DNA from: a virus
Lineage: Duplodnaviria > Heunggongvirae > Uroviricota > Caudoviricetes
DNA: 64,000 nt
IMG/VR virus record: IMGVR_UViG_3300032116_000094
Span: 1-64,000 of that record
Reading direction: 5' to 3' (one strand)
Shown piece after piece: positions 19,471 to 45,939 of this stretch. Within the stretch, counting starts at the first letter, position 1. Every line of letters starts with the position of its first letter. Position numbers and translations under genes: made by a program. The notes below the pieces were generated by a model that was not told where the DNA came from, did no database searches, and worked only from the letters and a program-made list of their open reading frames with translations.

Positions 19471-19477
19471 CCCTTTA

Positions 19478-28503: not shown

Positions 28504-28618
28504 TATATGAATATATCGAAATTTAATGAATTTTATAACGAAGTTGTATTGTCGCGTGAATCAAATTTTATATTTGAAAAAGACAAGATTAATATTTTAT
28601 TAAAGCCAAAATAAAAGT

Positions 28619-29721: not shown

Positions 29722-29722
29722 A

Positions 29723-31078: not shown

Positions 31079-31567
31079 ATGAATATTCTACCACAGATAG
31101 ACAACTTTAGAACTAAACCTAATTCTATTTTAGATGCTGAGCATACTATCACTCTTGATGATTGGTGTTTAGCATTAAATTATATGGAAACTATCGGGGG
31201 CAGTTTTACACATGACGGAATCATAAGGATTATGAAAGGTTCTGATCTTCCAAGTGATTCTATTTTAAATAAAAAATTGTTAATACCAAAAAATTTTACC
31301 TGTACAGAGAGAATCGTCCTTAGAAATTTAAAAATCGTAGAATTACCAGAAGATTTAACGATAACTGGGGTTGGGTTAATTCTTTTCGATACATTCTCTT
31401 TTTCAAAATTAGACTTAAATAAAATTAACTACATTTATATTGAAATATCAGGAGATCAACCAGATTACGATCTTGAAAAGATAGATAATTTTATTATGGA
31501 GCATTATGGCCCTAAGGCTGAAAAAGAATTCTTAGGAAGTTTGATTACATACACAATATTGTCATAG
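31079..31567 (+). CDS. Array-C paralog, subfamily b (162 aa)
   Basis: ORF. ..LALNYMETIGGSF.. shared YM..IGG.F motif with 32192, 32669, 33969. LRR-like LxxLxLxxLP segments. Confidence 0.55.
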   Translation: MNILPQIDNFRTKPNSILDAEHTITLDDWCLALNYMETIGGSFTHDGIIRIMKGSDLPSDSILNKKLLIPKNFTCTERIVLRNLKIVELPEDLTITGVGLILFDTFSFSKLDLNKINYIYIEISGDQPDYDLEKIDNFIMEHYGPKAEKEFLGSLITYTILS

Positions 31568-32137
31568 TATTTTATTCATAAATGACCGTATTGCTGATAT
31601 ATCCTCAAGAACAGGCTGACCGGATGCAAAATTTGGTATCTGATTAGATTGGTTGGGTAAGACAACTCTTGTACCGTCAACAAAATTTGAAGAGTCTTTA
31701 GGAAAAAATCTAGGAGCTTCTGAAGGAATGTTAGTCGTATTAGATACATGTATATGATTATAATGACCCTTAGTTTGCCACAATATAGCCTTAGGTATAT
31801 TATACTCTGACCCAGTATTTGTATATCCCATACTAACTAATGTTTTCACTAATAAATCACCCAATTCTTTAAATTCTTTAGGATTAGATCCCTGGCCAAT
31901 ACCATTAAGCCTAGATATATCAACAGCCATACCCTTTCCATGTCTACTAAGCCTATTAGTACCTTTAACATACTTAGAGTGATTACTAACCGCTGATGTT
32001 ATAATAGCGACAAAATCATGTCTAATATGAGTTCTGATATAGTCACAAGCATTTTTTAAATCTGTAACCAATGCAGGATTTATCTTGTCATTACTTACAA
32101 CATTATCTAATTTTAAAGAATTACTAATATTTACCAT
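31562..32137 (-). CDS. Putative zinc peptidase, M15/LAS family (peptidoglycan peptidase-like)
   Basis: ORF 191 aa. SRHGKGMAVDIS (SxHxxGxAxD) and HYNHIHVS (HxH) motifs. Confidence 0.5.
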   Translation of the reverse strand: MVNISNSLKLDNVVSNDKINPALVTDLKNACDYIRTHIRHDFVAIITSAVSNHSKYVKGTNRLSRHGKGMAVDISRLNGIGQGSNPKEFKELGDLLVKTLVSMGYTNTGSEYNIPKAILWQTKGHYNHIHVSNTTNIPSEAPRFFPKDSSNFVDGTRVVLPNQSNQIPNFASGQPVLEDISAIRSFMNKIL

Positions 32138-32191
32138 TAACTTTGTATTTATTAGTATAAATATCTCAAATTAGTAAAAAATAAACATGAT

Positions 32192-32665
32192 ATGGAATTT
32201 ATAACATTACCAGAATATAAATGTTTTTCAACTCAAAGTGATAAAAATTGCGATATATGGCAAAGAATGCTTGATTATATGCACGCCGTTGGCGGTAATT
32301 TCATTTATGACGGTTATGGTACCAGATTTGCTCCGGAATATTGTTTAAATATTGATAACGTATTATCTTCAGATTTAACAGAATTAAATTTTCCTGGGCA
32401 CATGATTATTAGGTCTCATGTTTTTGCTATTAAAGATGCCGGTAAATTACAACTGCCAGATAATACTACATTTGATGTAGATTTTTTGTATATTGAAAAT
32501 ACATTGGTTGTAAATATACCTGAAAATACTAAAGTTTTAGGTGAGATAGACTTTAACATGTCTCTTTTAGATGAAGAATACTTTACATACGACAAAGAAA
32601 ACCAAAAAATAATAACAGAAACGATTAACAATCTAAAAAAAATAGGCAAAGTAAATTTTATATAA
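32192..32665 (+). CDS. Array-C paralog, subfamily b (157 aa)
   Basis: ORF. ..MLDYMHAVGGNFIYDG. Confidence 0.55.
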   Translation: MEFITLPEYKCFSTQSDKNCDIWQRMLDYMHAVGGNFIYDGYGTRFAPEYCLNIDNVLSSDLTELNFPGHMIIRSHVFAIKDAGKLQLPDNTTFDVDFLYIENTLVVNIPENTKVLGEIDFNMSLLDEEYFTYDKENQKIITETINNLKKIGKVNFI

Positions 32666-32668
32666 AAA

Positions 32669-33100
32669 ATGGAGTTAATTTTACCTGATCTAGAATCATT
32701 TAAAACGGATGAAGAAGATTCACAATATTTAAACTTATTCAAATACATGAATAATATTGGTGGTATTTTTGTTGCAAAAACAGTTAATTTTGTAATAAAC
32801 CCCTGGAATTACGGTACAGAAACTGACCACTATAATTTATCTTTCCCTGGAACGCTAAAAGTACTTGGTAATGTAAAGTTTTATGATGCCGGGTTTATTA
32901 ATATAGGGTTTAAATTAGAAGTTTATGGTGATTTAATCGTTTCTGAAACAATATTTATTAATCCTGATATAAAAGTTATTAATGGACGTGTTAGGTATTT
33001 TATTAGTGCAGCAGATTGTAGGGCTAATGAATCTATTTGTCTAAAAAATGTAGATTATCTTTCTAAATTATCATCTGATTTTAGATATGAATTTGATTGA
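32669..33100 (+). CDS. Array-C paralog, subfamily b (143 aa)
   Basis: ORF. ..LFKYMNNIGGIFVAK. Confidence 0.55.
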   Translation: MELILPDLESFKTDEEDSQYLNLFKYMNNIGGIFVAKTVNFVINPWNYGTETDHYNLSFPGTLKVLGNVKFYDAGFINIGFKLEVYGDLIVSETIFINPDIKVINGRVRYFISAADCRANESICLKNVDYLSKLSSDFRYEFD

Positions 33101-33108
33101 AAAAATAT

Positions 33109-33139
33109 TTTGCGTTTTAATAAATTAGTTTTACCTTTG
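33109..33139 (+). promoter_or_regulatory. Bacteroidetes-type promoter for 33165..33899
   Basis: TTTG at 33109-33112. 19-nt spacer. TAccTTTG at 33132-33139. ~25 nt to ATG. Confidence 0.5.
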
Positions 33140-33164
33140 CGGTTCACAAATAAAAAAAACAACG

Positions 33165-33899
33165 ATGAAGTATATTGACGTCAAACAAAAACTGCAAGAT
33201 AAAGGTTTTAATCCAGAGTATGTACAAACTGGAGGTTATCTAGGTATCCTTTCATTTGTAAACCCTAATATTGAAGGTGAAATTATGGTTCATTTTGTTG
33301 ATCCAGAGGATGAAAATTCTATACCTGAAGAGATCGATTACATGGATAGTGAATTTCTTCATAATATCCCCGTAAAAGTTGTCACATTGCTTATCGATAA
33401 CCTAAATATCCCATACATGTCAGATGACATTCTTGACATTTATGGTGACAGGCACAATAACATTATTACTCTACTTAATGATGATATTGACAAGTACCTA
33501 GATACTTGCCTCAATATTGTTTGTGATCATGAGTATTTTTTGAATTTCATTGTTAGATATAACAATGAAGCTAACTCTTTCTTGATGAAAGTATTGAGCT
33601 TAAAAAATCAAATTGTTGCAGATGGACAATACAAGTTTTGTTTTTTCGCGACAAATGGTAATGAAAATAGTGTCTGCCCTTCAGTTGAAGCTCGATATTC
33701 CCTAGAACATGATACCTTCGTTCTATTTTTCACAATGGATACAATTTCATTTAAGAAAGAAGTCGGGATATCTGCTATAGGCGATCAATATATGTTTGAT
33801 ATTGATCATAATATTGAAGATATAAAAGAGACTTTTAACTCACAACTTGCTAATTGGCTTAGTCATAAAGAAACATGGCCTGATTATGTTTACGCATAA
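33165..33899 (+). CDS. Hypothetical acidic protein (244 aa)
   Basis: ORF. Confidence 0.55.
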   Translation: MKYIDVKQKLQDKGFNPEYVQTGGYLGILSFVNPNIEGEIMVHFVDPEDENSIPEEIDYMDSEFLHNIPVKVVTLLIDNLNIPYMSDDILDIYGDRHNNIITLLNDDIDKYLDTCLNIVCDHEYFLNFIVRYNNEANSFLMKVLSLKNQIVADGQYKFCFFATNGNENSVCPSVEARYSLEHDTFVLFFTMDTISFKKEVGISAIGDQYMFDIDHNIEDIKETFNSQLANWLSHKETWPDYVYA

Positions 33900-33968
33900 T
33901 CAGGTTTTTTATTATTTTTATACCATGTTCGGATATTTATAAAAATAATACTAAGAAAATTTATTTTT

Positions 33969-34433
33969 ATGATACATAGACTACCCTCACTAAGATATTT
34001 TTTATATGATGATGATGGGCCTGGACATGAAAACTCAACTATAAGCTACGCTAGATCTGAATATAACAAAGCTCTGCCTTTAGCTGTTGAATACATGGAT
34101 AACATAGGCGGTAAGTTTGAAACAAAAGAAAATATCGGGATATATAAGAAAAAAATTAACACAGGAAGATTGTACTCTGTCCATAGCTTATATTTAGGAA
34201 TAAATGCTGAGCAAGACTCGTTTCCTAATATAGAAATTGTTAATAAGTATATCATAATCGATATAAACGGCAATATTAAACATTTAAATAATATTACTCA
34301 TTGTGAGCAAATTATATGCAATAATGTTATATTGTTAGATATAACAGATAATTGGTCCGAAACAAACTCAAACTATCCTTTTAAATATGAAATAAACGGA
34401 AAAATTGTCAATTGCAAAAAAGCTATTAAGTAA
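33969..34433 (+). CDS. Array-C paralog, subfamily b (154 aa)
   Basis: ORF. ..AVEYMDNIGGKFETK. Confidence 0.55.
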   Translation: MIHRLPSLRYFLYDDDGPGHENSTISYARSEYNKALPLAVEYMDNIGGKFETKENIGIYKKKINTGRLYSVHSLYLGINAEQDSFPNIEIVNKYIIIDINGNIKHLNNITHCEQIICNNVILLDITDNWSETNSNYPFKYEINGKIVNCKKAIK

Positions 34434-34499
34434 TAGCCCCCCTGATGTTCTTATATATAAAATGGACGCAGATTAGTTTCTGCGTCCATTGTTTTTTTA

Positions 34500-34859
34500 C
34501 TATGAATATTTTTTAAGTATTTCATTAAAAAAATCAGAAGATATACTTTTTAGGCTACACTCCTCATACTCCGGCATACAAGATATTTCTAAAACAGTTT
34601 TACCTTTATATTTCAGCATGACCAATGTTTCATCTTCACTGTTTTTCAGATTTGATCTAATGTCAAGATCTAAATTTGTTTTCAAATCATCAAAGCATTC
34701 ATCTTTATCACAGATTTTTTCTGTTATGTCATCTATTAAACCCACAGAGTTGTCTGGATACCCTAAATGATCAACGTATTCTTTTATAAATTTAACTAAT
34801 TCAACATTTTTAGCTTCAATCTTCCTTTCTTGAAATAACTCAACCAATAAATTTTTCAT
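34500..34859 (-). CDS. Hypothetical acidic protein (119 aa)
   Basis: ORF. Confidence 0.5.
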   Translation of the reverse strand: MKNLLVELFQERKIEAKNVELVKFIKEYVDHLGYPDNSVGLIDDITEKICDKDECFDDLKTNLDLDIRSNLKNSEDETLVMLKYKGKTVLEISCMPEYEECSLKSISSDFFNEILKKYS

Positions 34860-34871
34860 AATATTTTATTT

Positions 34872-35696
34872 TTAAACTTGGCTAGATTCCTTAAGCATTT
34901 CGTAAGCCCTAGCTAACCTTGTTAAACCAATACCTCCACCAAATCGCTCAAAGAAATTTAAACTAAGAAATTCTTCCAATTCTTTCTCAACTCGTTCTCT
35001 ACCAAATAATTCAAAAAGTTTATTGGCATATGCCCCATCCATTATGTTATAGAACATTTGCCTCATATAATTAACGTCACAAGATCTTTCCGCAGATCCA
35101 ATTGTTTCCTGCCCATAAAGGATAATATCTATCTTATTAAATAGATCATTTCCAGCATGTTTCATATTCCAAAATGGAGATGTCCTGTATGGAAATTTCT
35201 CTAAAGATATAACATTACCAAGTTCTTTCCACATCCTAGATTCGTGCTCATCCTCTAAAATAGGAACCCCTCCGTATTCATCACACATATCGTCATAGTT
35301 TCTACTAACCGGGCTAGAAAATCCTAGATAATCTAGAAGTTCAGCCTCCAATTTTTTAAGCTCAGCAAATCCCCCCTTTGACTCAAATTCAAACATAGGG
35401 AAAATTTTCTCATGTCTTCCAGGGATCGGGTTTTTCTCATTACGGTATGATGTGGAGACGCAAAACACACCTGGCCAATCAGGGTTCTTCAGAAGCTCAT
35501 ATTCAAGCCACATTTGACCCGTTTGTGGTAGAGGCCATACTACTCCATCGTATTCAAAAGTCGCCACAGAGTGGGGATTTTCGCACGCAGCGAGTATTGA
35601 TAATCTGGACTGAGTAGGTACCTCAATCCATCCTTTAGATAAAAAGAAAGATCTCATTTTAGAGACTAGTTCGTGATATGTTTTTGTTTGTTTCAT
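34872..35696 (-). CDS. AsnA-like / truncated class-II aminoacyl-tRNA-synthetase catalytic core (AsnRS/AspRS-type), no anticodon-binding domain
   Basis: ORF 274 aa. Motif 2-like YRNEKNPIPGRHEKIFPMFEFE. ETIGSAER. Motif 3-like FERFGGGIGLTRLARAYE. Confidence 0.55.
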   Translation of the reverse strand: MKQTKTYHELVSKMRSFFLSKGWIEVPTQSRLSILAACENPHSVATFEYDGVVWPLPQTGQMWLEYELLKNPDWPGVFCVSTSYRNEKNPIPGRHEKIFPMFEFESKGGFAELKKLEAELLDYLGFSSPVSRNYDDMCDEYGGVPILEDEHESRMWKELGNVISLEKFPYRTSPFWNMKHAGNDLFNKIDIILYGQETIGSAERSCDVNYMRQMFYNIMDGAYANKLFELFGRERVEKELEEFLSLNFFERFGGGIGLTRLARAYEMLKESSQV

Positions 35697-35742: not shown

Positions 35743-36669
35743 TCATAACTGCTCAATTAATTCAGGTTTCCCAACAACTAGACTATATCTATTATGAAGA
35801 TTAGAATTGGTTGCTACTGTAATATACATTAAAACTAAGGTCATATATATATGTTCAACTAACTCATTTTTAGTTTTCTTAAAATATTCATAATTAAATA
35901 TTTCCGGCCTATTTGTTAATAGGTTATATTTAACATTTATTTCTGAATTTTTAACTACCATATCTGTTATCACAATATATTTAGTTAGATTTCTATTACT
36001 TGAAACATCAATAAACTTCTTGCTCATAACATGTTTTTTAAATTGTTCAAAAAAATACATAGTTAAATTATGTATTATCACATATATTTCTGTTGTTCTT
36101 TGTTTTAACGCAAATTCTAAATCAAATGTAGTTGCCTGTCTGATAATATGTTTTAATTGTTTACCATAAAAAGATTTCGACATAATATTAGGATCACTAT
36201 GATATTTGTTAATATTTTGAATAATATTAACATTATTGTAGGCAATATAATTTATTTCCCCCCCAATTTCACGGCATACGTATTTTTTATCCCTACCTTT
36301 ATACCACTCACCAACTACAATTCCCGAAATAAATGGAAATCCACACAAACCTAATAATAAAGATTCATTAGTACTTACAGGAAAAACTAATTTAGACCCA
36401 AAAATATCTTTTTCTGTTATTTTTGAACGAGGAATACCTTTCACTCTGGATAATTCTGTTAAATAACGATATCTGAGCGTGAAAATAAATGGAGGTAAAT
36501 CAAATATCTTATCCAAAGAAAATGTCTCAACTAACTTTATAAAAGTTCTATAAGGATAACTACTCATGTCAATCATAGCTAAAGAAAATTCTTCTGAGCT
36601 TAATTCAGAGAATCTCTTTTCTATTAGAGAATATACTTTAAATTCTAAATCAGAAATTTTAGGCTTCAT
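35743..36669 (-). CDS. Array-B paralog (308 aa)
   Basis: ORF. Shared family motifs (..Y.YL.LLS.KLN.P...IT..D.., W...G.GYKYV, NG.FYY). Confidence 0.6.
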   Translation of the reverse strand: MKPKISDLEFKVYSLIEKRFSELSSEEFSLAMIDMSSYPYRTFIKLVETFSLDKIFDLPPFIFTLRYRYLTELSRVKGIPRSKITEKDIFGSKLVFPVSTNESLLLGLCGFPFISGIVVGEWYKGRDKKYVCREIGGEINYIAYNNVNIIQNINKYHSDPNIMSKSFYGKQLKHIIRQATTFDLEFALKQRTTEIYVIIHNLTMYFFEQFKKHVMSKKFIDVSSNRNLTKYIVITDMVVKNSEINVKYNLLTNRPEIFNYEYFKKTKNELVEHIYMTLVLMYITVATNSNLHNRYSLVVGKPELIEQL

Positions 36670-36685
36670 TAGTTTGTTGTGGTTT

Positions 36686-37582
36686 TTATATATAATTGAC
36701 TGCGCATCGATAATTGTAATTCAAAAACTCAGTTTTCTTTATAAGGAATTCTTTGTATTGGCGATCAAGATATTGTTGACCAGAATATAAGCTAATTTTA
36801 TCCATAAATTTATTTATTTTACGGCAATAAAAATTTACTGTTCTATCTTCATGATTTACAACAACATTATCTAAAATAATACTAAAAACGTCTTTTAATT
36901 TAATATGAACTAAACGTGCATCATCACTTTTTATGTAAGTTTTAAAGTCATCAGTGATTGTTCTTAATATAACAGCTACAATATAATCGAAGTCAGCATC
37001 CGAACTTTGGTTTAAAACTATATTAAGATCATTCTTTTTGCATTTTGCAATAATACACTGTTTATTATTCATTACATCATATATATTATAGTATTTAGTA
37101 AAAAGATCATTTTCATGAAAAACCATGTTATTAAATGAAACTAAATTTATCATCCCCGTAGGATTTCTACCAACATATTTAAACCCATTTTTTCTATGCT
37201 CCCATTTGGAATGAAAATTATCAGACATAATAGGAAACCCAAATGCAACCAGTTCTCCTATTACCGAATAACCAACATTAATGTTAAGGACATTATTTAT
37301 TATATCATCAACGGTAATCTGACTTAGGCTTTTATTCAATTTTTCGGATAATAAAGTTAAATAATAGTATCGCATATAAAACAATTTGGTAGGATACCCT
37401 GTACTATCTTCAACATTTAAAGTCTCCATTAATTTTACAAATCTGGTATATAATTTACCTCCACTAATAAAACTAGCATATCCTGGGGCATATTTAAACA
37501 TCATTTTTTTTGGATCATACCCCATAAATTTATTAAATGTTCTATATAAATTAGGTTCAAAACTGAATATCTTTGGTTCCAT
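36686..37582 (-). CDS. Array-B paralog (298 aa)
   Basis: ORF. Family motifs. Confidence 0.6.
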   Translation of the reverse strand: MEPKIFSFEPNLYRTFNKFMGYDPKKMMFKYAPGYASFISGGKLYTRFVKLMETLNVEDSTGYPTKLFYMRYYYLTLLSEKLNKSLSQITVDDIINNVLNINVGYSVIGELVAFGFPIMSDNFHSKWEHRKNGFKYVGRNPTGMINLVSFNNMVFHENDLFTKYYNIYDVMNNKQCIIAKCKKNDLNIVLNQSSDADFDYIVAVILRTITDDFKTYIKSDDARLVHIKLKDVFSIILDNVVVNHEDRTVNFYCRKINKFMDKISLYSGQQYLDRQYKEFLIKKTEFLNYNYRCAVNYI

Positions 37583-37603
37583 ATTTTTATTTAATAATTT
37601 TTA

Positions 37604-38527
37604 CTACGTATTAAAATTTAAGTTAATATTTAAATTATATAACTCACTTAATTTTGATTTACTATAAACATAGTCAGAATATTGTTTATAAATACCATGC
37701 CACCAGGTACTCTTAATATTATCTATAAGCTGATCATCATAATCATCTGGAGCACTAACTATATTTATGTTTACTGTCATTTTTTTAGCCCTTGAATCTA
37801 CTTCAAATGTTGCATTCGCGGAATAAAAAAAATCCCACTCACGATAAAAACCCGTAACACCAAAATGATCCTTAGCATTATCACAGAAAGACTCCGTAAG
37901 GTTTTCACTAATTGCCCCAATTATATCCCGATTTTTTGTGTTTAATATAACCCTAAGATCCTCTTGTTTACAAGGAACTATACCATTAAGCCAGATAACT
38001 ACATCAAATAATTCTTCATCGTAATAAAAAATACCATTTTCAAGAATAATACCAAGTAAAATATTATCTGAAGTTCTAGCTACATATCTTTTTGATTTTA
38101 TATCCCAAGAACCGACAATACTTTTATTAGATGGAGATTTAAAAATCCATATTTTTTTTGCTGTAAAAGGAAATCCCCCCCGGATAATTCCAAACATTTC
38201 CTCAGCATAAAATGTGGGAATTTGTATTGGCTTTGCATTATAAACGTCAGACTCTGTTATTTCGTTTACAGGTTTATTTAATTTTTGTGATAGTAATTTT
38301 AAATAGATATAACGAGAAACCGCCATATTAATCGTAAAAGACTGAAATTTATAGCTAGGCATTTTTAGTTTTTCAAGACGTCTGGTCATCCTATGAATAA
38401 CAACGCCTAAACTAAAACTATCAGACATTATGTTTTGGTTAAAATCTTCTAGGTATATTTTAAGTTCTCTTTCAATCAATACTCTAAGAGCTTTCTCTAA
38501 TGGAGAAATTGTAAGCATTATTTTCAT
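37604..38527 (-). CDS. Array-B paralog (307 aa)
   Basis: ORF. Family motifs. Confidence 0.6.
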   Translation of the reverse strand: MKIMLTISPLEKALRVLIERELKIYLEDFNQNIMSDSFSLGVVIHRMTRRLEKLKMPSYKFQSFTINMAVSRYIYLKLLSQKLNKPVNEITESDVYNAKPIQIPTFYAEEMFGIIRGGFPFTAKKIWIFKSPSNKSIVGSWDIKSKRYVARTSDNILLGIILENGIFYYDEELFDVVIWLNGIVPCKQEDLRVILNTKNRDIIGAISENLTESFCDNAKDHFGVTGFYREWDFFYSANATFEVDSRAKKMTVNINIVSAPDDYDDQLIDNIKSTWWHGIYKQYSDYVYSKSKLSELYNLNINLNFNT

Positions 38528-39465
38528 ACATCAATAACCGTCTTAAAATTAAATTTATATGTACTCCATAATCTACTATCACAATCTGCGTTTAGTTTAA
38601 TTTGGGTTAGAAAATATTCAGTAATCTTATTTTCAAAATTTTTATCTTTTTTTATTTTTAAAAAGATATCTTCTAAATCAACAGTATTTTTGTTTACCTC
38701 ACGTCTAACCTTATTCTTATCTACGGATACGTGCAGTGTAATATTCAGATCTTTTAAACGAACTTTTTCTAGTGTTAAATCTAATAATATAGTTTCACCA
38801 TCAATGAAATAATAATGCTCAAAATTTTTAAGTTCAGTGTATAGAAATTTTTTAATACAATCTATAAATTTAGTTTTTACTAAACCCAAAATAGACTCAT
38901 AATTTAAATTAGGTAGTTTGCTAATTGCAGCCATATCTGAATGGCTAACAGGTATAATAAATAAAGATTTAAGTTCTATAAAAATACTTGTGTTAACTAA
39001 ACCATAGTACCCATAATGTTTTACGCCATTATAAAGATAAACGATGTCATTAGTATCAGTATCCCGAATAATATATTTATACCCATTTCCCTCGTCAACC
39101 CAATTCGATTTATATTTTTCACTTAAAAACTTAATTTTAAATTTTATTAGTTGAGCTGTCATTTCATTATCAGCGTCTATATTATATATCTCCGCATTAA
39201 TAATATCATCTATTGTTAATTTAGATATCTTTTTTTTGCGTATCTGGGATAAAACTGTTAAAGCAAAATATACTATGTAACACTTACGTGACGCGCTATT
39301 AAACTTATTTGGTATACCAAAATATTTTAATATACGAGATATATGATCATGCAACTCATCTCCAGATATAAGATCATATAATTTAGGACCACCTAAAGTA
39401 AGACCTATCTGTTTGTCTATGGTGTTAAATATAACAATATCTTGCTTGGTTAATCCTTCTAACAT
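38524..39465 (-). CDS. Array-B paralog (313 aa)
   Basis: ORF. Family motifs. 4-nt overlap with previous. Confidence 0.6.
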   Translation of the reverse strand: MLEGLTKQDIVIFNTIDKQIGLTLGGPKLYDLISGDELHDHISRILKYFGIPNKFNSASRKCYIVYFALTVLSQIRKKKISKLTIDDIINAEIYNIDADNEMTAQLIKFKIKFLSEKYKSNWVDEGNGYKYIIRDTDTNDIVYLYNGVKHYGYYGLVNTSIFIELKSLFIIPVSHSDMAAISKLPNLNYESILGLVKTKFIDCIKKFLYTELKNFEHYYFIDGETILLDLTLEKVRLKDLNITLHVSVDKNKVRREVNKNTVDLEDIFLKIKKDKNFENKITEYFLTQIKLNADCDSRLWSTYKFNFKTVIDV

Positions 39466-39493
39466 AATTTTTTAATACTATATTTATAAATAT

Positions 39494-40432
39494 CTACTCA
39501 TTGAGTAGTAGAGAAAAAACTAAAGTTCCCAAATTTAATACTTTACTTTTTGGGCTATATTTATAATAAACCTCAAAAACCAATGGCAATAGTTCATGCC
39601 TTAAATTAGTTTTAACCTCATCGTCAATCGGATCAGTTGTAAAGTGAAACTTTAAATCTTTTTTATTAAAAACTATTTTAGATAACCTAACATTAAAAGG
39701 ATAGTTTTCGAATATCAAAGCAAACCTGCGTATCTTAATAATCTTTTTGTACAATCTTTCAACTCGTTTAGCTTCAAGCTCAAGAAGCTTATTGCGCACT
39801 CCATCATAATCTAAATCAAGTTTTTCAATAACTTTCAAATCGTATGCATTCGCACTAACGTATTTTTTGCTAAATTCTGGAGAAACCTCTGATGAGGTAT
39901 AAAATTCGTTTACGTATTGTACCCCGTTAGAAAATATAGATACAAGATTAGTTCTACTATAGTAGTATAAATATTTTAACCCTTTAGATTTATCCCAGAG
40001 TCCAGATGAATCATAATGACCACGTGTAGAGCGAAAAGGAAATAAATAATACAAACAAATATTATCCATGAAACCTTCATTGATTATAATTTGTTCCGAA
40101 TTCGAGATATCAGTAAACGTCAATTCACTTCTACTTTTACCCAGCTTATATGCTATCTGTGTAGCAATAAGATACTTATAAAAGTAATAAGTTTCATAAT
40201 TACTATTCGGTTTTAACCCAAGAAACTTACTTTGCTTGTAAAAAACCACCCTAATATTATAATTTAAAGACAGAATATCTTTCGTAGTGTAAAAAAATAT
40301 ATCAAAAATTCCTGGGGGGATATCATACGGTTTAAGTCTTCTTTCCGAAAGAAATTTTTTAATATAAGCACGTAGTGATTTATCAATTAAATCAAAAGCT
40401 CTTACTTCGAAATTACTAAAATATTTGGCCAT
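39494..40432 (-). CDS. Array-B paralog (312 aa)
   Basis: ORF. Family motifs. Confidence 0.6.
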   Translation of the reverse strand: MAKYFSNFEVRAFDLIDKSLRAYIKKFLSERRLKPYDIPPGIFDIFFYTTKDILSLNYNIRVVFYKQSKFLGLKPNSNYETYYFYKYLIATQIAYKLGKSRSELTFTDISNSEQIIINEGFMDNICLYYLFPFRSTRGHYDSSGLWDKSKGLKYLYYYSRTNLVSIFSNGVQYVNEFYTSSEVSPEFSKKYVSANAYDLKVIEKLDLDYDGVRNKLLELEAKRVERLYKKIIKIRRFALIFENYPFNVRLSKIVFNKKDLKFHFTTDPIDDEVKTNLRHELLPLVFEVYYKYSPKSKVLNLGTLVFSLLLNE

Positions 40433-41346
40433 TATATATATTTTTTACCATTTATGTATATACTAGTTTCGCCAGAATCTAACAAACGGCTATGAAAGAT
40501 GAAAGCACTACGTTGTAAATTATTCATTACATGAAGAAGCGTTTTAGCCACATTATTTAATAATTCATCTGTTTTTATTTTTGATTTAAAATAAAAATTT
40601 ATATTTTCTTTTCCGGAGTAATCAATTTTAATTAGCTTGGACTGAGTTTCTGCAAGATATTTTATATATTTTCCATCTTCATGTACTTCATACATACGTT
40701 TCAATTCTTTTATACTTAATTTCTTTATTTTATCTATATAACCACTATAATCTAAATCATAGGTTTCTATAACTTCAAGATCACGGATTGAACAAGGTCT
40801 AGCAAAATCACTAAAAATACTTGGGATAGTGAAATTATATGTATCATAATTATAGTAGAACTCCCCATTTGTATATATAAACCAAAGTCCTGAACTATAA
40901 ACTTTATACTTAAGACCATTCTTGTTAACCCAAACAGCTTTCATATCATCCCCAGTGAAAGGTATCAAATTAGCAATTGCTGCTGTCGCCCACTCGTTAT
41001 CTTTTACTAAGATATCTTTCGCATTTATAATATCCTTTTGTGTCAAATAATTTATGTGCTTATCTAACTTTGCCGCTATTTCTGAGCAAAGTATATATTT
41101 GACATATAAAACGGTTAAATCACCTTGTATTCCAAAAAATTTAGCTTTTTTAATGAAAATTTCTTCCGATTTTTGAGCAAAACCTGCTGATAGGTAAATA
41201 TATCGATATAAATCGAAACTAATTTTCAGTTTTCTAACTGGATTATAATACTGAAAAGTCTTCGCAGCTTCATATAATGACTCTTCAACTTTTTTTAAAA
41301 AAAATATTTCACGACTATTAAATACTATGCCCATAATTATAAACAT
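40432..41346 (-). CDS. Array-B paralog (304 aa; start may be internal)
   Basis: ORF. Family motifs. 5' end overlaps the upstream paralog by ~29 nt. Confidence 0.55.
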   Translation of the reverse strand: MFIIMGIVFNSREIFFLKKVEESLYEAAKTFQYYNPVRKLKISFDLYRYIYLSAGFAQKSEEIFIKKAKFFGIQGDLTVLYVKYILCSEIAAKLDKHINYLTQKDIINAKDILVKDNEWATAAIANLIPFTGDDMKAVWVNKNGLKYKVYSSGLWFIYTNGEFYYNYDTYNFTIPSIFSDFARPCSIRDLEVIETYDLDYSGYIDKIKKLSIKELKRMYEVHEDGKYIKYLAETQSKLIKIDYSGKENINFYFKSKIKTDELLNNVAKTLLHVMNNLQRSAFIFHSRLLDSGETSIYINGKKYI

Positions 41347-42262
41347 TAATACCGTTTATGTTTAACCGAACCCTAGAGTATGAAAAGTTAGATAAGTTAC
41401 CTATGTTATTATATGACATATGAATAAAAGTTGCAATGCCGTCTCCAAGTTTATGTATACTTTTTTCCGATAAATTAGAAATATCACGGTTAAGTGGTGT
41501 TTTAAGATCAACGATTAATATTTTATCTAATATTTTAAAATCATCCAAAACCAACCCTTCATCTTTAAAATTAGCATCAAATTTCAGTTGCTCTGTCAAA
41601 AATTTTTTTAATTTTTTAAAATTTAATTTTGTAAGATAATCAACTAACTCTTCATGGCTAAAATCATGATTCATAATTATATTTAATTCACGAGCAGTCG
41701 ATTTTTCTTTATTTGGTAAATATGTCCCAATATATGGGGGACTTGAATGATTAAATACGTTATCATTATAATAATATACCCCATTAGTATAAACTAGAGC
41801 TAAATTTTGATTTTTTTTAACAACATATTTTAAGCCATTAACTTCAACCCAATTTGAGATAAATGATTTTGATCTGCTTGGCACCAATAACGATATTGCC
41901 GGTAAAAAATCAGGCCTTGATACAAGGATAGGTGTAAAATTAATTACATCTGACATTGTTAGATCTTTAACCGGTTTATTATTTCTTGCAGCAATCTCTG
42001 AATACAAAAGATATTTGACAATCTCTCGTCGTGGATTAACATTATAATAACCCAATTTATTTAATAACTTCATAAGTTCTTTAAATGAAAATTGACTAAA
42101 ATCAGGTAAATAAATATAATCATCATATATTTTTGTGAGGAAACTAGGATTTATATACTTCTCCGGCGGGCTATCACCAAAATATTTGCGATAAATATGA
42201 TTAATATATTTATTAATTATACCATAAGAAATAACATCTCTATTATTTAATAATCTTTCCAC
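41318..42262 (-). CDS. Array-B paralog (314 aa)
   Basis: ORF. Family motifs. Confidence 0.6.
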   Translation of the reverse strand: MERLLNNRDVISYGIINKYINHIYRKYFGDSPPEKYINPSFLTKIYDDYIYLPDFSQFSFKELMKLLNKLGYYNVNPRREIVKYLLYSEIAARNNKPVKDLTMSDVINFTPILVSRPDFLPAISLLVPSRSKSFISNWVEVNGLKYVVKKNQNLALVYTNGVYYYNDNVFNHSSPPYIGTYLPNKEKSTARELNIIMNHDFSHEELVDYLTKLNFKKLKKFLTEQLKFDANFKDEGLVLDDFKILDKILIVDLKTPLNRDISNLSEKSIHKLGDGIATFIHMSYNNIGNLSNFSYSRVRLNINGINVYNYGHSI

Positions 42263-42325
42263 AACCCGCTTTTAATTTTTAAATGTTTATGTATATACTT
42301 ATCAAGATACTCATATAGTGCGGTT

Positions 42326-43255
42326 TCACTTTTTGTTATTAGATTTTCCATATATTTTAATTTCTACGTTTATTTCATATTTATTCGGAATATCAAGAGC
42401 ATATTCATATGGCTCCCCCATTATAGATTTTAATAATCTATCTTTCACTACATCCTCAAAATAAGCTTTAGATCCTGAAGTTATTGAATTTTTCTCAGAA
42501 GTAATTTTAAAATTAAAGCCATTTTTTGTTTTTTTAACTTCATTGACTAAAAATTTTTCAGAAACATGGCCAGCTATATTAACGGTTATAGACCCAAAGT
42601 ATACCTGGAAATATTCATATACTTTTTTATGAACAAATTTTTTAACTTGTTCCAAAGTATAGTCATTTTCGGCAATATAATTTATTAAACTTGGTCCAAC
42701 AGAAATAAGGTTAAATTTTTTTGCAATATTATCAAAAGGAATATTTGGTGCAAAATAATAGTATTCTCCATTTGAATATACAAATGATGCCTGATCTTCG
42801 ATAGAATTGTTATAATAAACATAATTATTGCCTTTATCCTTAATCCATTTGGATGCTCCAACAGCTCCTTGAGCTGTTTTAAATGGAATTTTAGAAATTA
42901 AAAGAGCCGGAATAAATGAAACTACAGTTTTTTGTTGCGGCAGTTTCATTAAATCATTAATATCTATTTCTGAATAATTTTTACCAAATAAATTTTTTAT
43001 CGTTGAAAAATGTATGTATCTACCAAAATAATAATTAAACATCATCCCTGCTGTAGATACCCCCAATCTAGATAAAACAGATTTAAACGTTTTCATAATA
43101 AATTCTCTATTCACAATGTTATTAACATATGCACTAGCCATATCACCAATAAATTCGTCAGCCATAGATGGAGCATATAACATAAATTTTTGATAAATTA
43201 ACCTATCAGCCGCACTAAAAAGTGTTATATCAAATTTAGATAAAACTCTACTCAT
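42326..43255 (-). CDS. Array-B paralog (309 aa)
   Basis: ORF. Family motifs. Confidence 0.6.
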   Translation of the reverse strand: MSRVLSKFDITLFSAADRLIYQKFMLYAPSMADEFIGDMASAYVNNIVNREFIMKTFKSVLSRLGVSTAGMMFNYYFGRYIHFSTIKNLFGKNYSEIDINDLMKLPQQKTVVSFIPALLISKIPFKTAQGAVGASKWIKDKGNNYVYYNNSIEDQASFVYSNGEYYYFAPNIPFDNIAKKFNLISVGPSLINYIAENDYTLEQVKKFVHKKVYEYFQVYFGSITVNIAGHVSEKFLVNEVKKTKNGFNFKITSEKNSITSGSKAYFEDVVKDRLLKSIMGEPYEYALDIPNKYEINVEIKIYGKSNNKK

Positions 43256-43256
43256 A

Positions 43257-44156
43257 TTACTCTACTTCAATTATAAAATTTAATTTTGATATATCTATCA
43301 AATTACGATAAATTCTTATTATGTAAGAATTAATAAGAGCAACTTTTATCGCTCCGCCGTTTATTAGTTCTTCATATAAACTGTTAGTAAGATATTGGCC
43401 TATAACTTTAAACTTAAATTTAAATGTCCTCTTAGAGAAAGATACGCCAATAATTTTTAAATCCACATTTTTTTCAGAAAGAGTTCTCGCTGTCAATAAT
43501 AAATCGATATATGTTTTAGCTTTTCGACCCATACTAATTATTGCTGCTTTTTCGATATCTGCTGAACGATTATCATATATAATCGACATCTCAGGATCAT
43601 TCACTAAACGGATGTCTGGCCCAAGATTTGATGTGTCAAATTCTTGCCAGTCAGGAAAAGCTATTTTATTCCTATAAAGAATACCTCCAGAATAAATCCA
43701 AGAAATAATCCGGCTCCCATTTATATCAGTAATTACAACATATTTTTGTCCTTTAAAATTTACCCATTTACCTATAGATTTAAGTGTAAATGGTACTTTA
43801 AAAAAAATCGCAGCAGAAACTGCTGACTGATTATGCATAAAACCAGGACCACGTATATGACTTTCCATAAAATCTTCTTGAGTTAAAGATTTACGGTTTT
43901 TATTATGTTTATAACAAACATGTGAGCTAAAAATATATTTAAAAAACATAAATCCAAAGTTATCTCTTTGATAACCAAAAAAAGGTATTTTTTTTAAAAA
44001 AGCATTTTTTATCTCATCATGATATTTGTTATACATAGAAAGCATATCTTTCTGCTGGTCATTTTGAAAGACAATATTAGATAATACATTTTCACTAATG
44101 TATTTATCTATGCTTTCAAATGCAACTATTTCCCTTTTTGTGAAAAATTCTGGCAT
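43257..44156 (-). CDS. Array-B paralog (299 aa)
   Basis: ORF. Family motifs. Confidence 0.6.
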   Translation of the reverse strand: MPEFFTKREIVAFESIDKYISENVLSNIVFQNDQQKDMLSMYNKYHDEIKNAFLKKIPFFGYQRDNFGFMFFKYIFSSHVCYKHNKNRKSLTQEDFMESHIRGPGFMHNQSAVSAAIFFKVPFTLKSIGKWVNFKGQKYVVITDINGSRIISWIYSGGILYRNKIAFPDWQEFDTSNLGPDIRLVNDPEMSIIYDNRSADIEKAAIISMGRKAKTYIDLLLTARTLSEKNVDLKIIGVSFSKRTFKFKFKVIGQYLTNSLYEELINGGAIKVALINSYIIRIYRNLIDISKLNFIIEVE

Positions 44157-44167
44157 AAAAATATTGA

Positions 44168-45127
44168 TTAGAATTTAATATTTATATCTGACAAATCTAT
44201 AGAATCCGCACTAAAAACACTTGTATTTAAATCATACCCATGTTTATCAAATTGAATTAAAAAATACACCTTATCATGCACCCTATTTTTAATAGCAATT
44301 TTTTCATCTAGGCTAAGATCCTTAGGGTTAATTTTTGAGTTGTTTTCAGCATCTATTATATTGATTATTTTTATATCAAAAATAATTTTTTCATTTTCAT
44401 TTCTTATACTAGTAAATTTAAAGTAAATATCCGTATCTTCATCTGGTGGGGCTGAAATATAATATCTGTTTTGCTGATCATCCCCTAACTTAAACCCTTT
44501 AGTAAAATCAACAGCAAGTTGATCGTATATGGCTTTTTTAAATGAATTATCTTTGTCAATTTTACTATTAATAACGGTCTCTAACTCAAATAACGTAACA
44601 TGACGAGTTTCGTCAGTTATTCCTTTCGGTAACTTTATATTACGGCCAAAAGTATTTACCGTGTTGTATTTTAACTTATATTTCTCATTATTTACATAAG
44701 CAAAAAAAGGCACCACATCACTAAACCTTTTTTCATAACATACATATTTAAGCCCAGTATCTGATTGATTAATCCAGCGGCTTATTGTAGAAGCGTCTAC
44801 ACAATCATACTCTAAAAAATTTAGAATAAATGCATTTTGTAACTCGCGATTTCTAATTTTAAATTTTTGACCAATCAAATCTTTAAAATCAAGATCAATT
44901 AATTTTTTATTTCTATTTTTTGCTATTATATTATAACACAAATATTTAATACCATAATAGTCGTCAGAATTAGGGTACAAAATCCCGAAATATCTTAAAT
45001 ATTTGCGAACGAATAATATCATTCCAAAATAATTTTCATTAGACACTGAAAACAGATCCTTGTTTTTTAATTTTTTATCTAAATAACTAAATAATTTAAT
45101 TTCGAAGTCCGATACTAACTTAATCAT
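44168..45127 (-). CDS. Array-B paralog (319 aa, most divergent)
   Basis: ORF. Weaker family similarity. Confidence 0.5.
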   Translation of the reverse strand: MIKLVSDFEIKLFSYLDKKLKNKDLFSVSNENYFGMILFVRKYLRYFGILYPNSDDYYGIKYLCYNIIAKNRNKKLIDLDFKDLIGQKFKIRNRELQNAFILNFLEYDCVDASTISRWINQSDTGLKYVCYEKRFSDVVPFFAYVNNEKYKLKYNTVNTFGRNIKLPKGITDETRHVTLFELETVINSKIDKDNSFKKAIYDQLAVDFTKGFKLGDDQQNRYYISAPPDEDTDIYFKFTSIRNENEKIIFDIKIINIIDAENNSKINPKDLSLDEKIAIKNRVHDKVYFLIQFDKHGYDLNTSVFSADSIDLSDINIKF

Positions 45128-45177
45128 ACAAATTATATAATAGCAAATTAGCCCCCATTTTAGGTGGGGGCTTTCAG

Positions 45178-45498
45178 TTAATTAACATCAACAAAAGAAT
45201 TAGGAAACATTTTACACGCTCTGAGATAATTCTCCAATAATGGGATAAATTCTTTGTAAGCAGTTTTTATCTTCTCATCTTCTGAGTTTATATAAACGTC
45301 TTCTTGTTCTTTTAATTTATCTAGGCCACTGCTTATAGGTTTTATCAATTCTCTGGCAGCTTTTATTCCAACCGCATTAGGTTTCCAAAGAATTCTATAA
45401 AGGCCAACATTTGTCGCAATTTCACATAAATTTCTAGATAATTTTGTTGAAAAAACCGTATCTTGGTTTTTTGATGTTAAACACAATGTTTGTTCCAT
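45178..45498 (-). CDS. Hypothetical protein (106 aa)
   Basis: ORF. Confidence 0.5.
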   Translation of the reverse strand: MEQTLCLTSKNQDTVFSTKLSRNLCEIATNVGLYRILWKPNAVGIKAARELIKPISSGLDKLKEQEDVYINSEDEKIKTAYKEFIPLLENYLRACKMFPNSFVDVN

Positions 45499-45501
45499 AA
45501 T

Positions 45502-45939
45502 TTAACTTAGGTATTTTAGTTTATACAAGGTAGAATATATTAATTCCAATATAGTATCTACCTGATTTTGAAGATAAGAATCTTTTATCTCTTTCCTGGA
45601 TATTTCGATGTTATCTGCTAGGCCTTTAAAATAAGAGATTACTTGTTCTGAACTACTGTAATTCTCAATACCTTCACAGTCAAAACTTCCAATTATGCCG
45701 TATTTCCCTTGATAAGATTCAACAAATCCATCAATTAAATCACCAATACCCTCATAATATGAGCCCAACGCCTTGTGCTCTGCATATGATTTTGTTTGTA
45801 AATGAAAAACATGAGATTGATTCCTGGATGTTAATATATCCGATACAAACATATCAACACCTTCAGTTTTTGTTATTTTAACAGTGTCTTGCTCGCCGAT
45901 CAATGAATTGATCAAGTCAGCCTTCGTAAATTTGCTCAT
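45502..45939 (-). CDS. Hypothetical protein (145 aa)
   Basis: ORF. Confidence 0.5.
   Translation of the reverse strand: MSKFTKADLINSLIGEQDTVKITKTEGVDMFVSDILTSRNQSHVFHLQTKSYAEHKALGSYYEGIGDLIDGFVESYQGKYGIIGSFDCEGIENYSSSEQVISYFKGLADNIEISRKEIKDSYLQNQVDTILELIYSTLYKLKYLS

What the first reader, a model, noticed from the sequence alone, without database searches (positions are those of the whole stretch)
35743..45127. Second tandem array: ten ~300-aa paralogs head-to-tail on the minus strand
Ten consecutive genes of 298-319 aa sit with minimal or overlapping junctions. They share blocks such as ..RY.YLKLLSQKLNKP...IT..D.., W..G.GYKY and NG.FYY, but only ~25-35% overall identity. The array is therefore old and diversifying. 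It is unlike array A: no repeat-flanked tail, size and spacing resembling receptor or anti-defence families. No catalytic motif was recognised.
Basis: seen in the sequence. Interest (0 to 1): 0.6.

Follow-up and report, generated by a model that had tools for sequence, protein, structure and literature searches.

The report
Amplified orphan gene in jumbo phage
A gene of unknown function that is single-copy in about 80 related large freshwater phages has been multiplied here into ten fast-evolving tandem copies, the pattern usually seen in virus-host arms-race genes, though its actual function remains unknown.

Summary
Ten intact minus-strand genes (298-319 aa) lie head to tail at 35743-45127, and all ten are true paralogs: leave-one-out profile scores are 34-114 bits against 9 bits or less for shuffles.

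They are not a free-standing family. They are a lineage-specific amplification of an uncharacterised ~300-aa gene that is single-copy in 79 of 79 related IMG/VR phage loci, usually just downstream of a DUF5856 gene. hhalign confirms the homology (96.8%, E 3e-10).

- A sister genome has 11 copies. The window's 63-bp B8/B7 spacer is the relic of that eleventh copy.
- A cousin lineage amplified the gene independently to six copies.
- The arrayed copies lost the ancestral signature (GSN, SYGWYP, YSSSTSKQMSNA).
- They evolve at omega 0.45, against 0.15 for flanking genes and 0.17 for the single-copy gene.
- Against a third genome they are 30-35% identical where flanking genes are 80-92%.
- One natural variant has two copies knocked out.

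No Pfam, PHROG, NCBIfam, PADLOC, PDB or BFVD match was found, and no conserved catalytic motif.

My best inference is a set of host-interaction binders with diverged C-terminal domains (moderate to low confidence). This is a new member of a known kind: paralog arrays in jumbo phages.

The parts
44168..45127 (-). B10, the first gene of the array (319 aa). It sits in the position that the single-copy ancestor occupies in related phages, and its orthogroup is the least derived.
   Evidence: ORF. Leave-one-out profile 34 bits. Highest score against the single-copy profile, with its orthologs P0030 and Lg1. Ortholog in L001 is 90% identical.
43257..44156 (-). B9 (299 aa)
   Evidence: Orthologs are Lg2 at 69% and P0026 at 35%. 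Omega 0.35.
42326..43255 (-). B8 (309 aa)
   Evidence: 46 bits. Ortholog Lg3 at 85%. Omega 0.31.
42263..42325 (-). Relic of a deleted eleventh copy. It retains the 5' codons and the 3' end of the gene that is intact in the sister genome (L001:3485-4429, 314 aa).
   Evidence: Base-level comparison. blastn shows that about 850 bp of L001 are missing cleanly here.
41318..42262 (-). B7 (314 aa, GTG start; the L001 ortholog starts with ATG at the same position)
   Evidence: Omega 1.18, the highest in the array.
40432..41346 (-). B6 (304-aa ORF; the true start is probably 41334, giving 300 aa). This is the copy modelled with AlphaFold2.
   Evidence: 114 bits. Model pLDDT 81.6, pTM 0.76. Gene callers give 300 aa.
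39494..40432 (-). B5 (312 aa)
   Evidence: Omega 0.68.
39486..39508 (-). Short hairpin (39508-39494) followed by the phage-specific motif GATATTTAT (39494-39486), 21 nt before the B4 start. This may be an internal promoter that splits the array into B10-B5 and B4-B1.
   Evidence: motif found 11 times against 4.4 expected. In L001 the motif carries one mismatch, so support is weak.
38524..39465 (-). B4 (313 aa). The start codon is lost (ATG to ATA) in the natural variant L004.
37604..38527 (-). B3 (307 aa). A 100-bp frameshifting deletion (37807-37906) occurs in the natural variant L004.
36686..37582 (-). B2 (298 aa)
   Evidence: Omega 0.55.
35743..36669 (-). B1 (308 aa), the last gene of the array
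   Evidence: The identical protein is on record in NCBI, JGI, ENA and Logan, on a contig of 277,584 bp.
45150..45172 (-). GC-rich hairpin immediately upstream of the first array gene. It is conserved in position in all four lineages, with stem-preserving sequence changes. It is a terminator or attenuator, or an RNA-stability element.
45178..45939 (-). Conserved upstream flank: the DUF5856 (Dps-like) gene at 45502-45939 and a 106-aa gene at 45178-45498. The single-copy homolog lies directly downstream of DUF5856 in related phages.
34461..35696 (-). Downstream flank on the same strand: a class II aaRS-like gene (34872-35696), a 119-aa gene (34500-34859), and a bidirectional terminator hairpin (34461-34490). 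They are probably co-transcribed with at least B4-B1.

Best explanation
SHOWN. The array is a lineage-specific tandem amplification of a single ancestral gene.
- Related large freshwater phages carry one ~300-aa gene of unknown function, usually directly downstream of a DUF5856 gene. It has a strongly conserved central signature: LPF[KR]GSNLEG.W...SYGWYPIFIF...WY...YSSSTSKQMSNA.
- In the window's sub-lineage this gene was duplicated stepwise to at least 11 copies. One copy was later deleted here, leaving ten.
- A cousin lineage amplified the gene independently to six copies at the same locus.
- All copies keep the same three-part fold: an N-terminal helical bundle, a four-stranded beta-meander, and a C-terminal alpha/beta domain. 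They have lost the ancestral signature.
- The copies share no conserved residue in the C-terminal domain. They evolve two to three times less constrained than both their neighbours and the single-copy gene. They are individually dispensable in nature.

INFERRED. The copies are soluble, basic proteins acting as a panel of binders. The conserved N-terminal and beta-meander scaffold would dock to a common partner. The diverged C-terminal domain would give each copy a different target specificity. The panel would serve host interaction (host take-over, host range or counter-defence), and recurrent selection from variable hosts would drive both amplification and divergence.

The panel appears to be transcribed from phage-specific promoters rather than host-type promoters. 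Transcription would read through a conserved hairpin, together with the downstream aaRS-like gene.
For: Paralogy.

Family size and restriction: only 22 representatives among 1.84 billion proteins, and none in 50,697 phage genomes.

Copy number in relatives:
- Syntenic arrays of 11 copies (L001) and 6 copies (L010).
- 1:1 orthologs in the same order.
- Relic of the eleventh copy.
- K clade monophyletic in 100/100 bootstraps.
- Single-copy homolog next to DUF5856 in L097, L098 and L099.
- Single copy in 79/79 IMG/VR loci.

Homology of the arrayed and single-copy groups: hhalign 96.8%, E 3e-10, 223 columns. Loss of the signature.

Same architecture in two AlphaFold2 models, pLDDT 81.6 and 86.6.

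Conservation confined to residues ~84-164.

Evolutionary rate:
- Omega 0.45 (0.39-0.52) for the array against 0.15 (0.13-0.18) for 11 flanking genes.
- Single-copy gene omega 0.17.
- Array orthologs 30-35% identical against 80-92% for flanks in the third genome.

Dispensability: natural start-codon loss in B4 and frameshift deletion in B3.

Protein properties: no TM segment or signal peptide, pI about 9.

Transcription signals: no host-type TAnnTTTG box on the gene strand in or before the array, although the motif is 3.7-fold enriched in the window. Conserved hairpin.
Against: - There is no direct evidence of any binding partner or of a role in host interaction.
- No PADLOC or PHROG anti-defence hit.
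- Overall omega is below 1, so elevated rates could reflect relaxed constraint rather than diversifying selection. Only B7 reaches 1.18, and that was not tested for significance.
- Each copy is retained as a positional ortholog in three lineages. This argues for stable individual functions rather than rapid turnover.
- The promoter assignment rests on motif counts only, and the B4 motif is imperfect in L001.
- The ancestral gene's function is unknown too.
Confidence: 0.45

Rival explanations
1. The copies are packaged head-internal or ejection proteins. They would be incorporated into the capsid and injected with the DNA, like the paralog families of giant phages (SPN3US family B with 20 members, 17 of them consecutive; phiKZ inner-body proteins) or the T4 internal proteins. 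This does not exclude a host take-over role after injection.
For: - The anatomy is close to SPN3US gp138-154: 17 head-to-tail genes, mostly 265-333 aa, about 10-nt junctions, and copy number ranging from 2 to 20 between relatives.
- The proteins are basic.
- They share an N-terminal motif M....S..[ED][IV]..F..[IL]DK that could act as a targeting sequence.
- The array is not driven by host-type promoters.
Against: - No homology to SPN3US family B: hhalign probability 0.06%.
- The conserved N-terminus is predicted as a confident helix integrated in the fold (pLDDT 81-91), not as a disordered propeptide.
- The acidic position is Glu or Asp in different copies, whereas the T4 protease requires Glu at P1 (my own knowledge).
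- The array lies among nucleotide-metabolism and accessory genes (ThyX, DUF5856, aaRS-like), not head genes.
Confidence: 0.2
2. The array is a leftover of a dosage amplification (a "gene accordion"). The gene was amplified for expression level. The copies then drifted under relaxed constraint and are slowly being lost, with no new specificities evolved.
For: - Omega is raised but below 1.
- The ancestral signature is lost in all copies.
- One copy is deleted, and two more are inactivated in a natural variant.
Against: - All ten ORFs are intact and are kept as positional orthologs in three lineages, even though orthologs have diverged to 30-35% identity. Neutral sequences would have accumulated stops long before that.
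- Omega is 0.26-0.34 in the scaffold blocks.
- Both AlphaFold2 models are confident.
- A second, independent amplification occurred at the same locus.
Confidence: 0.12
3. The proteins are RNA- or ribosome-associated factors. The C-terminal alpha-beta-beta-alpha-beta domain would be KH-type-II-like (RbfA/RimP-like). The family would modulate translation or RNA metabolism together with the neighbouring translation-related genes.
For: - The neighbourhood contains an aaRS-like gene, tRNA-Met and GOLLD RNA.
- SmpB lies near the single-copy gene in L097 and L098.
- The proteins have a basic pI.
Against: - The matches are domain-level only, on a very common small fold. Foldseek E-values are 0.3 or worse.
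- No GXXG or AxG-type motif, and no conserved residue at all in the C-terminal domain.
- The C-terminal halves of B3 and B10 are acidic, pI 4.6-4.8.
Confidence: 0.1
4. The copies are receptor-binding or tail-fibre adaptor proteins: a conserved N-terminal anchor with a variable C-terminal receptor-binding domain, giving a multi-host range.
For: The layout of a conserved N-terminal part and a variable C-terminal part resembles the organisation of phage receptor-binding proteins.
Against: - The fold is globular alpha/beta, with no fibrous, beta-helix or trimeric coiled-coil features.
- No PHROG tail hits.
- No tail genes are adjacent. The array is embedded between ThyX/DUF5856 and an aaRS-like gene.
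Confidence: 0.03

Closest known systems
The single-copy "S" gene of related freshwater jumbo phages (unnamed; clusters P0038-P0055; 181 IMG/VR contigs), normally located just downstream of a DUF5856 gene
   Same: Homologous by hhalign (96.8%, E 3e-10 over 223 columns). Same length class, same genomic slot next to DUF5856, and same PF...W...G.[KY]Y...[IF][FY].[DN]G..[WY]Y core.
   Different: That gene is single-copy (79/79 loci) and well conserved (51% column identity, omega 0.17). It carries the invariant GSN, SYGWYP and YSSSTSKQ motifs. The arrayed copies number 10, 11 or 6, are 12-28% identical to each other, evolve at omega 0.45, and have lost those motifs.
Salmonella giant phage SPN3US virion Paralog family B (gp138-154 and others; PMC5694885)
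   Same: A long head-to-tail run of ~30-kDa paralogs with tiny junctions in a jumbo phage. Copy number is very variable between related phages (2 to 20), and the function is unknown.
   Different: Not homologous: hhalign probability 0.06%. The SPN3US proteins are proven head proteins, whereas the location of the present ones is unknown. The present array sits among metabolic and accessory genes.
T4 internal proteins (IPI-III) and the hyperplastic accessory regions of T4-like phages
   Same: Clustered, fast-evolving accessory proteins with a shared N-terminal segment, individually dispensable, and used against host defences (my own knowledge; CTS summarised in PMC5694885).
   Different: No sequence relationship. 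There is no conserved protease site with Glu at P1. The N-terminus is predicted to be part of the fold. The proteins are about 300 aa rather than about 10-20 kDa.
Type II KH-like domains of RbfA and RimP (ribosome maturation factors)
   Different: No sequence similarity and no nucleic-acid-binding loop motif. This domain is the least conserved part of the family, and it is acidic in two copies.

Membership tests
Single-copy DUF5856-adjacent "S" family of freshwater jumbo phages | Detectable homology over most of the length | tested here: met
   hhalign A3 against A8: probability 96.8%, E 3e-10, 223 aligned columns.
Single-copy DUF5856-adjacent "S" family of freshwater jumbo phages | Location directly downstream of the DUF5856 gene (with or without a ~100-aa gene between) | tested here: met
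   The window, L001, L013 and L010 have DUF5856, then a ~105-aa gene, then the first array gene. L097, L098 and L099 and 33 IMG/VR loci have DUF5856 0-463 nt upstream.
Single-copy DUF5856-adjacent "S" family of freshwater jumbo phages | Invariant signature GSN ... SYGWYP ... YSSSTSKQMSNA | tested here: not met
   The signature is absent from all B, Lg and K copies in the joint alignment. Individual copies score 11 bits or less against the S profile. The array is therefore a derived subfamily, not an orthodox member.
SPN3US virion Paralog family B | Sequence or profile homology to gp138-154 | tested here: not met
   hhalign A3 against A5: probability 0.06%.
SPN3US virion Paralog family B | Presence in the purified virion head | not testable with these tools
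   This requires proteomics of an uncultured phage.
T4-type internal proteins (capsid-targeted) | N-terminal capsid-targeting propeptide ending in a conserved protease site (Glu at P1) | tested here: not met
   The conserved acidic position is E in 6 and D in 4 of the 10 copies. The N-terminal segment is a confident helix within the fold.
Type II KH / RbfA-like RNA-binding domains | alpha-beta-beta-alpha-alpha-beta topology | tested here: inconclusive
   [not shown]
Type II KH / RbfA-like RNA-binding domains | Conserved GXXG (AxG in RbfA) loop between the two helices | tested here: not met
   No residue reaches 60% conservation anywhere after position 193.
[not shown]
   The only invariant acidic residue is D105, in LTxxD. 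There is no GS or DxD motif and no significant Pfam NTase hit (Poly_A_pol_cat E 0.034 in one copy only).
Known anti-phage-defence or defence-associated families (PADLOC) and PHROG functional families | A profile match | tested here: not met
   PADLOC: one of 21 members hits at E 0.04. PHROGs: nothing below E 0.029.

The most novel reading that the evidence does not exclude
The amplified copies could form a previously unrecognised class of phage host-interaction effectors. The same orphan gene was amplified independently twice at the same locus. After amplification the copies shed the ancestral signature and kept only a docking scaffold. Their KH-like C-terminal domains then diversified to engage different host targets, possibly components of the translation or RNA machinery, given the fold hints and the aaRS-like, tRNA, GOLLD and SmpB neighbourhood. 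This would be a phage counterpart of the poxvirus host-range gene accordion, frozen into a stable multigene panel.
Probability: 0.2. Interest if true: 0.7.

Novelty: new member of a known kind. Interest (0 to 1): 0.45.

Why it matters
Long arrays of diverged paralogs are known in a few giant phages, but their origin and purpose are mostly obscure.

Here the history can be read directly:
- a well-conserved single-copy ancestor, seen in 79/79 relatives;
- two independent amplifications at the same locus (6 copies, and 10-11 copies);
- loss of the ancestral signature;
- a two- to three-fold rise in omega;
- a fossil of a deleted copy;
- natural knock-outs.

That makes this a clean natural experiment on how phages build multigene families. 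It also provides a defined set of about 30 related proteins, with two confident structure models, for testing what such families do.

The phage group is abundant in lakes: at least 587 IMG/VR contigs share the aaRS-like neighbour. From its promoter motifs it probably infects Bacteroidota. If the copies prove to be host-range or counter-defence factors, they would add a new protein family to that field. If they are not, this remains an ordinary lineage-specific expansion of an orphan gene.

Tried and rejected
**Searches with no significant result**
- Pfam, PHROGs, NCBIfam and PADLOC on all copies and relatives.
- PDB sequence profile searches with both family profiles.
- The AFDB library was unavailable.
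- megablast and tblastn against 50,697 phage genomes.

**Relationships tested and rejected**
- Homology to SPN3US paralog family B.
- Any relationship to the window's other paralog families, including the 38-copy array A: all hhalign probabilities were below 10%.
- An equivalent array next to the aaRS-like gene in P-SSM2 or in 80 IMG/VR relatives.

**Other ideas rejected**
- Recent duplication or gene conversion: there are no DNA repeats among the copies.
- T4-type late promoters: TATAAATA occurs at chance frequency, 25 against 24.4 expected.
- A helix-turn-helix reading of the A.KLGKS.S.LT..DI block. The second helix is only about 5 residues in the model, and the NCBIfam HTH hits are single-member at E 0.01 or worse.

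**Technical failures**
- A degenerate-pattern scan with the full family alignment failed for lack of conserved stretches.
- The K-type profile found nothing in IMG/VR.
- Two tree scripts failed, one by time-out and one by distance saturation, before succeeded.

Full report
**1. The observation**

Their lengths are 308, 298, 307, 313, 312, 304, 314, 309, 299 and 319 aa. I call them B1 (35743-36669) to B10 (44168-45127). Junctions range from a 29-nt overlap to a 63-nt gap.

Pairwise BLASTP connects most copies only transitively: B1-B2-B3/B4-B6-B7-B5-B9. B8 and B10 are barely linked. I therefore ran a leave-one-out profile test.
- Each copy scores 34-114 bits against a profile of the other nine.
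- 200 shuffles of the same copy never exceed 9 bits.
- No other ORF in the window scores above 5.5 bits.

It is 11.5-27.8% globally and 21-33% in local segments.

The same sequence occurs at 100% identity in independent assemblies from JGI, ENA and Logan, so the array is not an assembly artefact.

**2. What kind of genome this is**

The window is 27-36% G+C. B1's exact protein is on record on a 277,584-bp contig, and JGI samples carry the same sequence.

The neighbours are typical accessory genes of a large phage:
- ThyX, a Dps-like DUF5856 protein, a metallophosphoesterase, NUDIX, thioredoxin and an SLT transglycosylase;
- a 274-aa class II aaRS-like protein that is 55-56% identical to the "tRNA ligase" of cyanomyoviruses P-SSM2 and P-SSM7.

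At least 587 IMG/VR contigs, many of 200-465 kb, carry a 72-79% identical aaRS-like gene. This is therefore an abundant clade of jumbo phages.

About half of the window's 118 genes belong to paralog families.

The octamer TAYCTTTG is 3.7-fold enriched (28 against 7.6 expected; 0 of 100 shuffles reach 28). It sits in front of many genes, preceded by TTTG or TTGCA about 19 nt upstream. This matches the TAnnTTTG -7 box reported as conserved in Flavobacterium and Bacteroides (PMC7641319). A Bacteroidota host is therefore likely; this is an inference.

**3. The family outside the window**

The B family is extremely restricted.
- A word-indexed search of 5.8 billion proteins returned 4 hits.
- An exhaustive profile search of 1.84 billion representatives returned 22 hits.
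- tblastn against 50,697 phage genomes returned nothing.

The hits resolve into three further genomes.
- L001 is about 88% identical in DNA. It has eleven copies in the same slot. Each window copy has a 1:1 ortholog in the same order at 69-90% aa identity, and there is one extra gene (Lg4) between the orthologs of B8 and B7.
- A fragmented third genome (L012-L014) has orthologs of at least B10, B9, B8, B3 and B1, with the same flanks.
- L010 is more distant. It has six ~340-aa copies (K1-K6) in the same slot.

At base level, the window's 63-nt B8/B7 spacer retains the first codons and the 3' end of Lg4. The window lineage therefore had eleven copies and deleted one.

**4. The origin: amplification of a single-copy gene**

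I pulled 80 loci through the conserved aaRS-like neighbour. The slot upstream of it turned out to be variable and free of arrays. One locus (L076) held a lone 297-aa relative.

I used that protein as the query and found 18 more clusters. On longer contigs each is a single gene immediately downstream of DUF5856.

This "S" group is well conserved, at 51% mean column identity. Its central signature is LPF[KR]GSNLEG.W..D..G.PYY.V.SYGWYPIFIFKD..WYEV...YSSSTSKQMSNA.P.

Profile-profile comparison shows it is homologous to the B/K copies: 96.8% probability, E 3e-10, 223 columns.

A scan of IMG/VR found 181 contigs with an S gene.
- In the 80 loci kept, it was single-copy within ±10 kb in 79 of the 79 where it was detected.
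- DUF5856 lay 0-463 nt upstream in at least 33 of them.

In a tree rooted with the S group:
- the six K copies are monophyletic (100/100);
- the B9 and B10 orthogroups are each 100/100;
- the deep order among B copies is unresolved.

The ancestral state is therefore one gene. It was amplified at least twice, at the same locus.

The joint alignment shows that all arrayed copies keep PF...W...G.[K]Y...I[FY].[DN]G..[WY]Y. They have lost GSN, SYGWYP and YSSSTSKQMSNA.

The B10 orthogroup, which sits in the ancestral position, is the least derived. The evidence for this is weak.

**5. Evolutionary dynamics**

Nei-Gojobori estimates between the window and L001 give omega of 0.31-1.18 per copy, with B7 the highest.

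| Gene set | Omega |
|---|---|
| Array, pooled | 0.45 (bootstrap 95% interval 0.39-0.52) |
| Eleven flanking genes, pooled | 0.15 (0.13-0.18) |
| aaRS-like gene | 0.034 |
| Single-copy S gene, 20 independent genome pairs | 0.07-0.27, pooled 0.17 |
| Single-copy S gene, pairs with dS similar to window vs L001 | 0.16-0.27 |

Within the proteins, omega is lowest in the conserved scaffold blocks (0.26-0.34). It is highest in the N-terminal insertion region and the C-terminal domain (0.6-0.75).

Over a longer time-scale the contrast is stark. Against the third genome the flanking proteins are 80-92% identical, while positional orthologs in the array are only 30-35% identical.

No DNA-level repeats link the copies, so there has been no recent duplication or gene conversion.

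One population variant (L004, JGI 3300008116) differs from the window by an ATG-to-ATA start loss in B4, a K85N change in B3, and a 100-bp frameshifting deletion in B3 flanked by TGAA microhomology. This suggests that individual copies are dispensable. The caveat is that it comes from a metagenome assembly.

**6. Protein anatomy**

AlphaFold2 models of B6 (pLDDT 81.6, pTM 0.76) and of the distant K4 (pLDDT 86.6, pTM 0.77) agree on three parts:
- an N-terminal helical bundle;
- a four-stranded beta-meander that carries W139, K146, Y147, N160 and Y164;
- a C-terminal alpha-beta-beta-alpha-beta domain.

Across 33 sequences, residues conserved at 60% or more lie only at positions ~84-164, plus a small N-terminal patch (E13, D21/K22). 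None lie in the last ~110 residues.

The proteins are soluble and mostly basic, with pI about 9. The C-terminal halves of B3 and B10 are acidic.

Fold searches gave no whole-chain match.
- Foldseek on PDB gave E of 0.31 or worse.
- Foldseek on BFVD gave E of 0.02 or worse, on ~100-aa DUF8033 proteins.

No Pfam, PHROG, NCBIfam, PADLOC or PDB-sequence match is significant for either subgroup.

The invariant residues (Y, D, W, Y) look structural. I see no candidate catalytic constellation.

**7. Expression signals**

A GC-rich hairpin lies 22 nt upstream of the B10 start. It is conserved in position in all four lineages, with changes on both arms that keep the stem: AGCCCCCA/TGGGGGCT in the window against ACCCCCAA/TTGGGGGT in L010.

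There is no room for a promoter between the hairpin and the start codon. The array is therefore probably reached by read-through from the unit that begins at the GATATTTAT motif in front of the DUF5856 gene. This is an inference.

A second GATATTTAT motif, with a small hairpin, precedes B4. It is imperfect in L001.

No host-type TAnnTTTG box lies on the gene strand in or before the array. T4-type TATAAATA occurs at chance frequency.

A bidirectional terminator at 34461-34490 closes the unit after the aaRS-like gene and the 119-aa gene.

**8. Interpretation**

What is shown is the evolutionary identity of the array. It is a birth-and-death multigene family. It was created by repeated tandem amplification of a conserved orphan gene, and the ancestral signature was then lost. 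The copies diverged quickly, above all in the C-terminal domain, and were later partly lost.

What the copies do is inferred. The most economical reading is a panel of binders. They would share a docking scaffold and have diverged specificity domains, and they would be used in host interaction. I put this at about 0.45.

The rivals are:
- packaged head or ejection proteins, analogous but not homologous to SPN3US paralog family B (PMC5694885);
- decaying remnants of a dosage amplification;
- RNA- or ribosome-associated factors, suggested by the KH-like fold and the translation-related neighbourhood;
- receptor-binding proteins (unlikely).

**9. Novelty and verdict**

Paralog arrays in jumbo phages are a known phenomenon. 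This family is new, with no curated family and no characterised homolog, and its history is unusually legible. I class it as a new member of a known kind, of moderate interest. The function remains open.

Noticed in passing
BLASTP clustering links 38 consecutive ~95-119-aa paralogs. It is unrelated to family B (hhalign probability 1%).
   Followed up: partly
window 49707-50134 (-) and 50552-50623 (-): A full-length GOLLD RNA (Rfam RF02032, 231.5 bits, model positions 1-416 of 416) lies about 420 nt downstream of a tRNA-Met gene on the same strand.
   Followed up: no
window 13433-13563 (-): A tRNA match (Rfam, 42.5 bits) spans 131 nt, so it carries an insertion or intron of about 60 nt. ARAGORN did not call it. 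Further T-arm-like sequences (GGTTCGAATCC) near 18884-19153 and 19352-19530 were called by neither tool.
   Followed up: no
window-wide, e.g. upstream of genes at 17992(-), 23566(-), 24975(-), 25308(-), 27016(-), 30532(-), 33165(+), 48416(-), 59152(-): A Bacteroidota-type promoter signature, TTTG/TTGCA followed about 19 nt later by TA[CT]CTTTG, precedes many genes (28 against 7.6 expected). Start codons lack Shine-Dalgarno sequences. This points to a Bacteroidota host.
   Followed up: partly
window 15767, 16237, 17176, 27580, 32165, 33932, 39494, 45964, 47557 (motif positions): A second motif, GATATTTAT, lies 17-22 nt before start codons (11 against 4.4 expected). It is presumably a phage-specific promoter class. 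Its temporal class is unknown.
   Followed up: partly
window 27937-30235 (+); window 31079-34433; L010:12135-17862 (-): More tandem paralog sets occur nearby. There are four ~180-aa genes at 27.9-30.2 kb. L010 has twelve ~155-aa genes where the window has four; these are related to window 33969-34433 (hhalign 95.5%).
   Followed up: partly
window 32595-32720: The natural variant L004 also carries a 126-bp deletion here, spanning the end of the gene at 32192-32665 and the start of the gene at 32669-33100.
   Followed up: no
window 35743-45127 compared with its flanks: Between the window and L001, synonymous divergence is lower inside the array (dS 0.23) than in the flanking genes (dS 0.43), while dN is higher. 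This is unexplained. Possible causes are different recombination histories or codon constraints.
   Followed up: no
window 34872-35696 (-): The 274-aa class II aaRS-like protein (catalytic core only) is under very strong constraint (omega 0.034). It is conserved in at least 587 IMG/VR contigs and in cyanomyoviruses P-SSM2 and P-SSM7, where it is annotated "tRNA ligase". Its real activity is unknown.
   Followed up: partly
L097:6048-6482 and L098:4968-5402: Related phages encode an SmpB homolog (tmRNA-binding protein) about 1.5 kb upstream of the single-copy S gene. L099 encodes a PolyA_pol/CCA-adding-type nucleotidyltransferase nearby.
   Followed up: no
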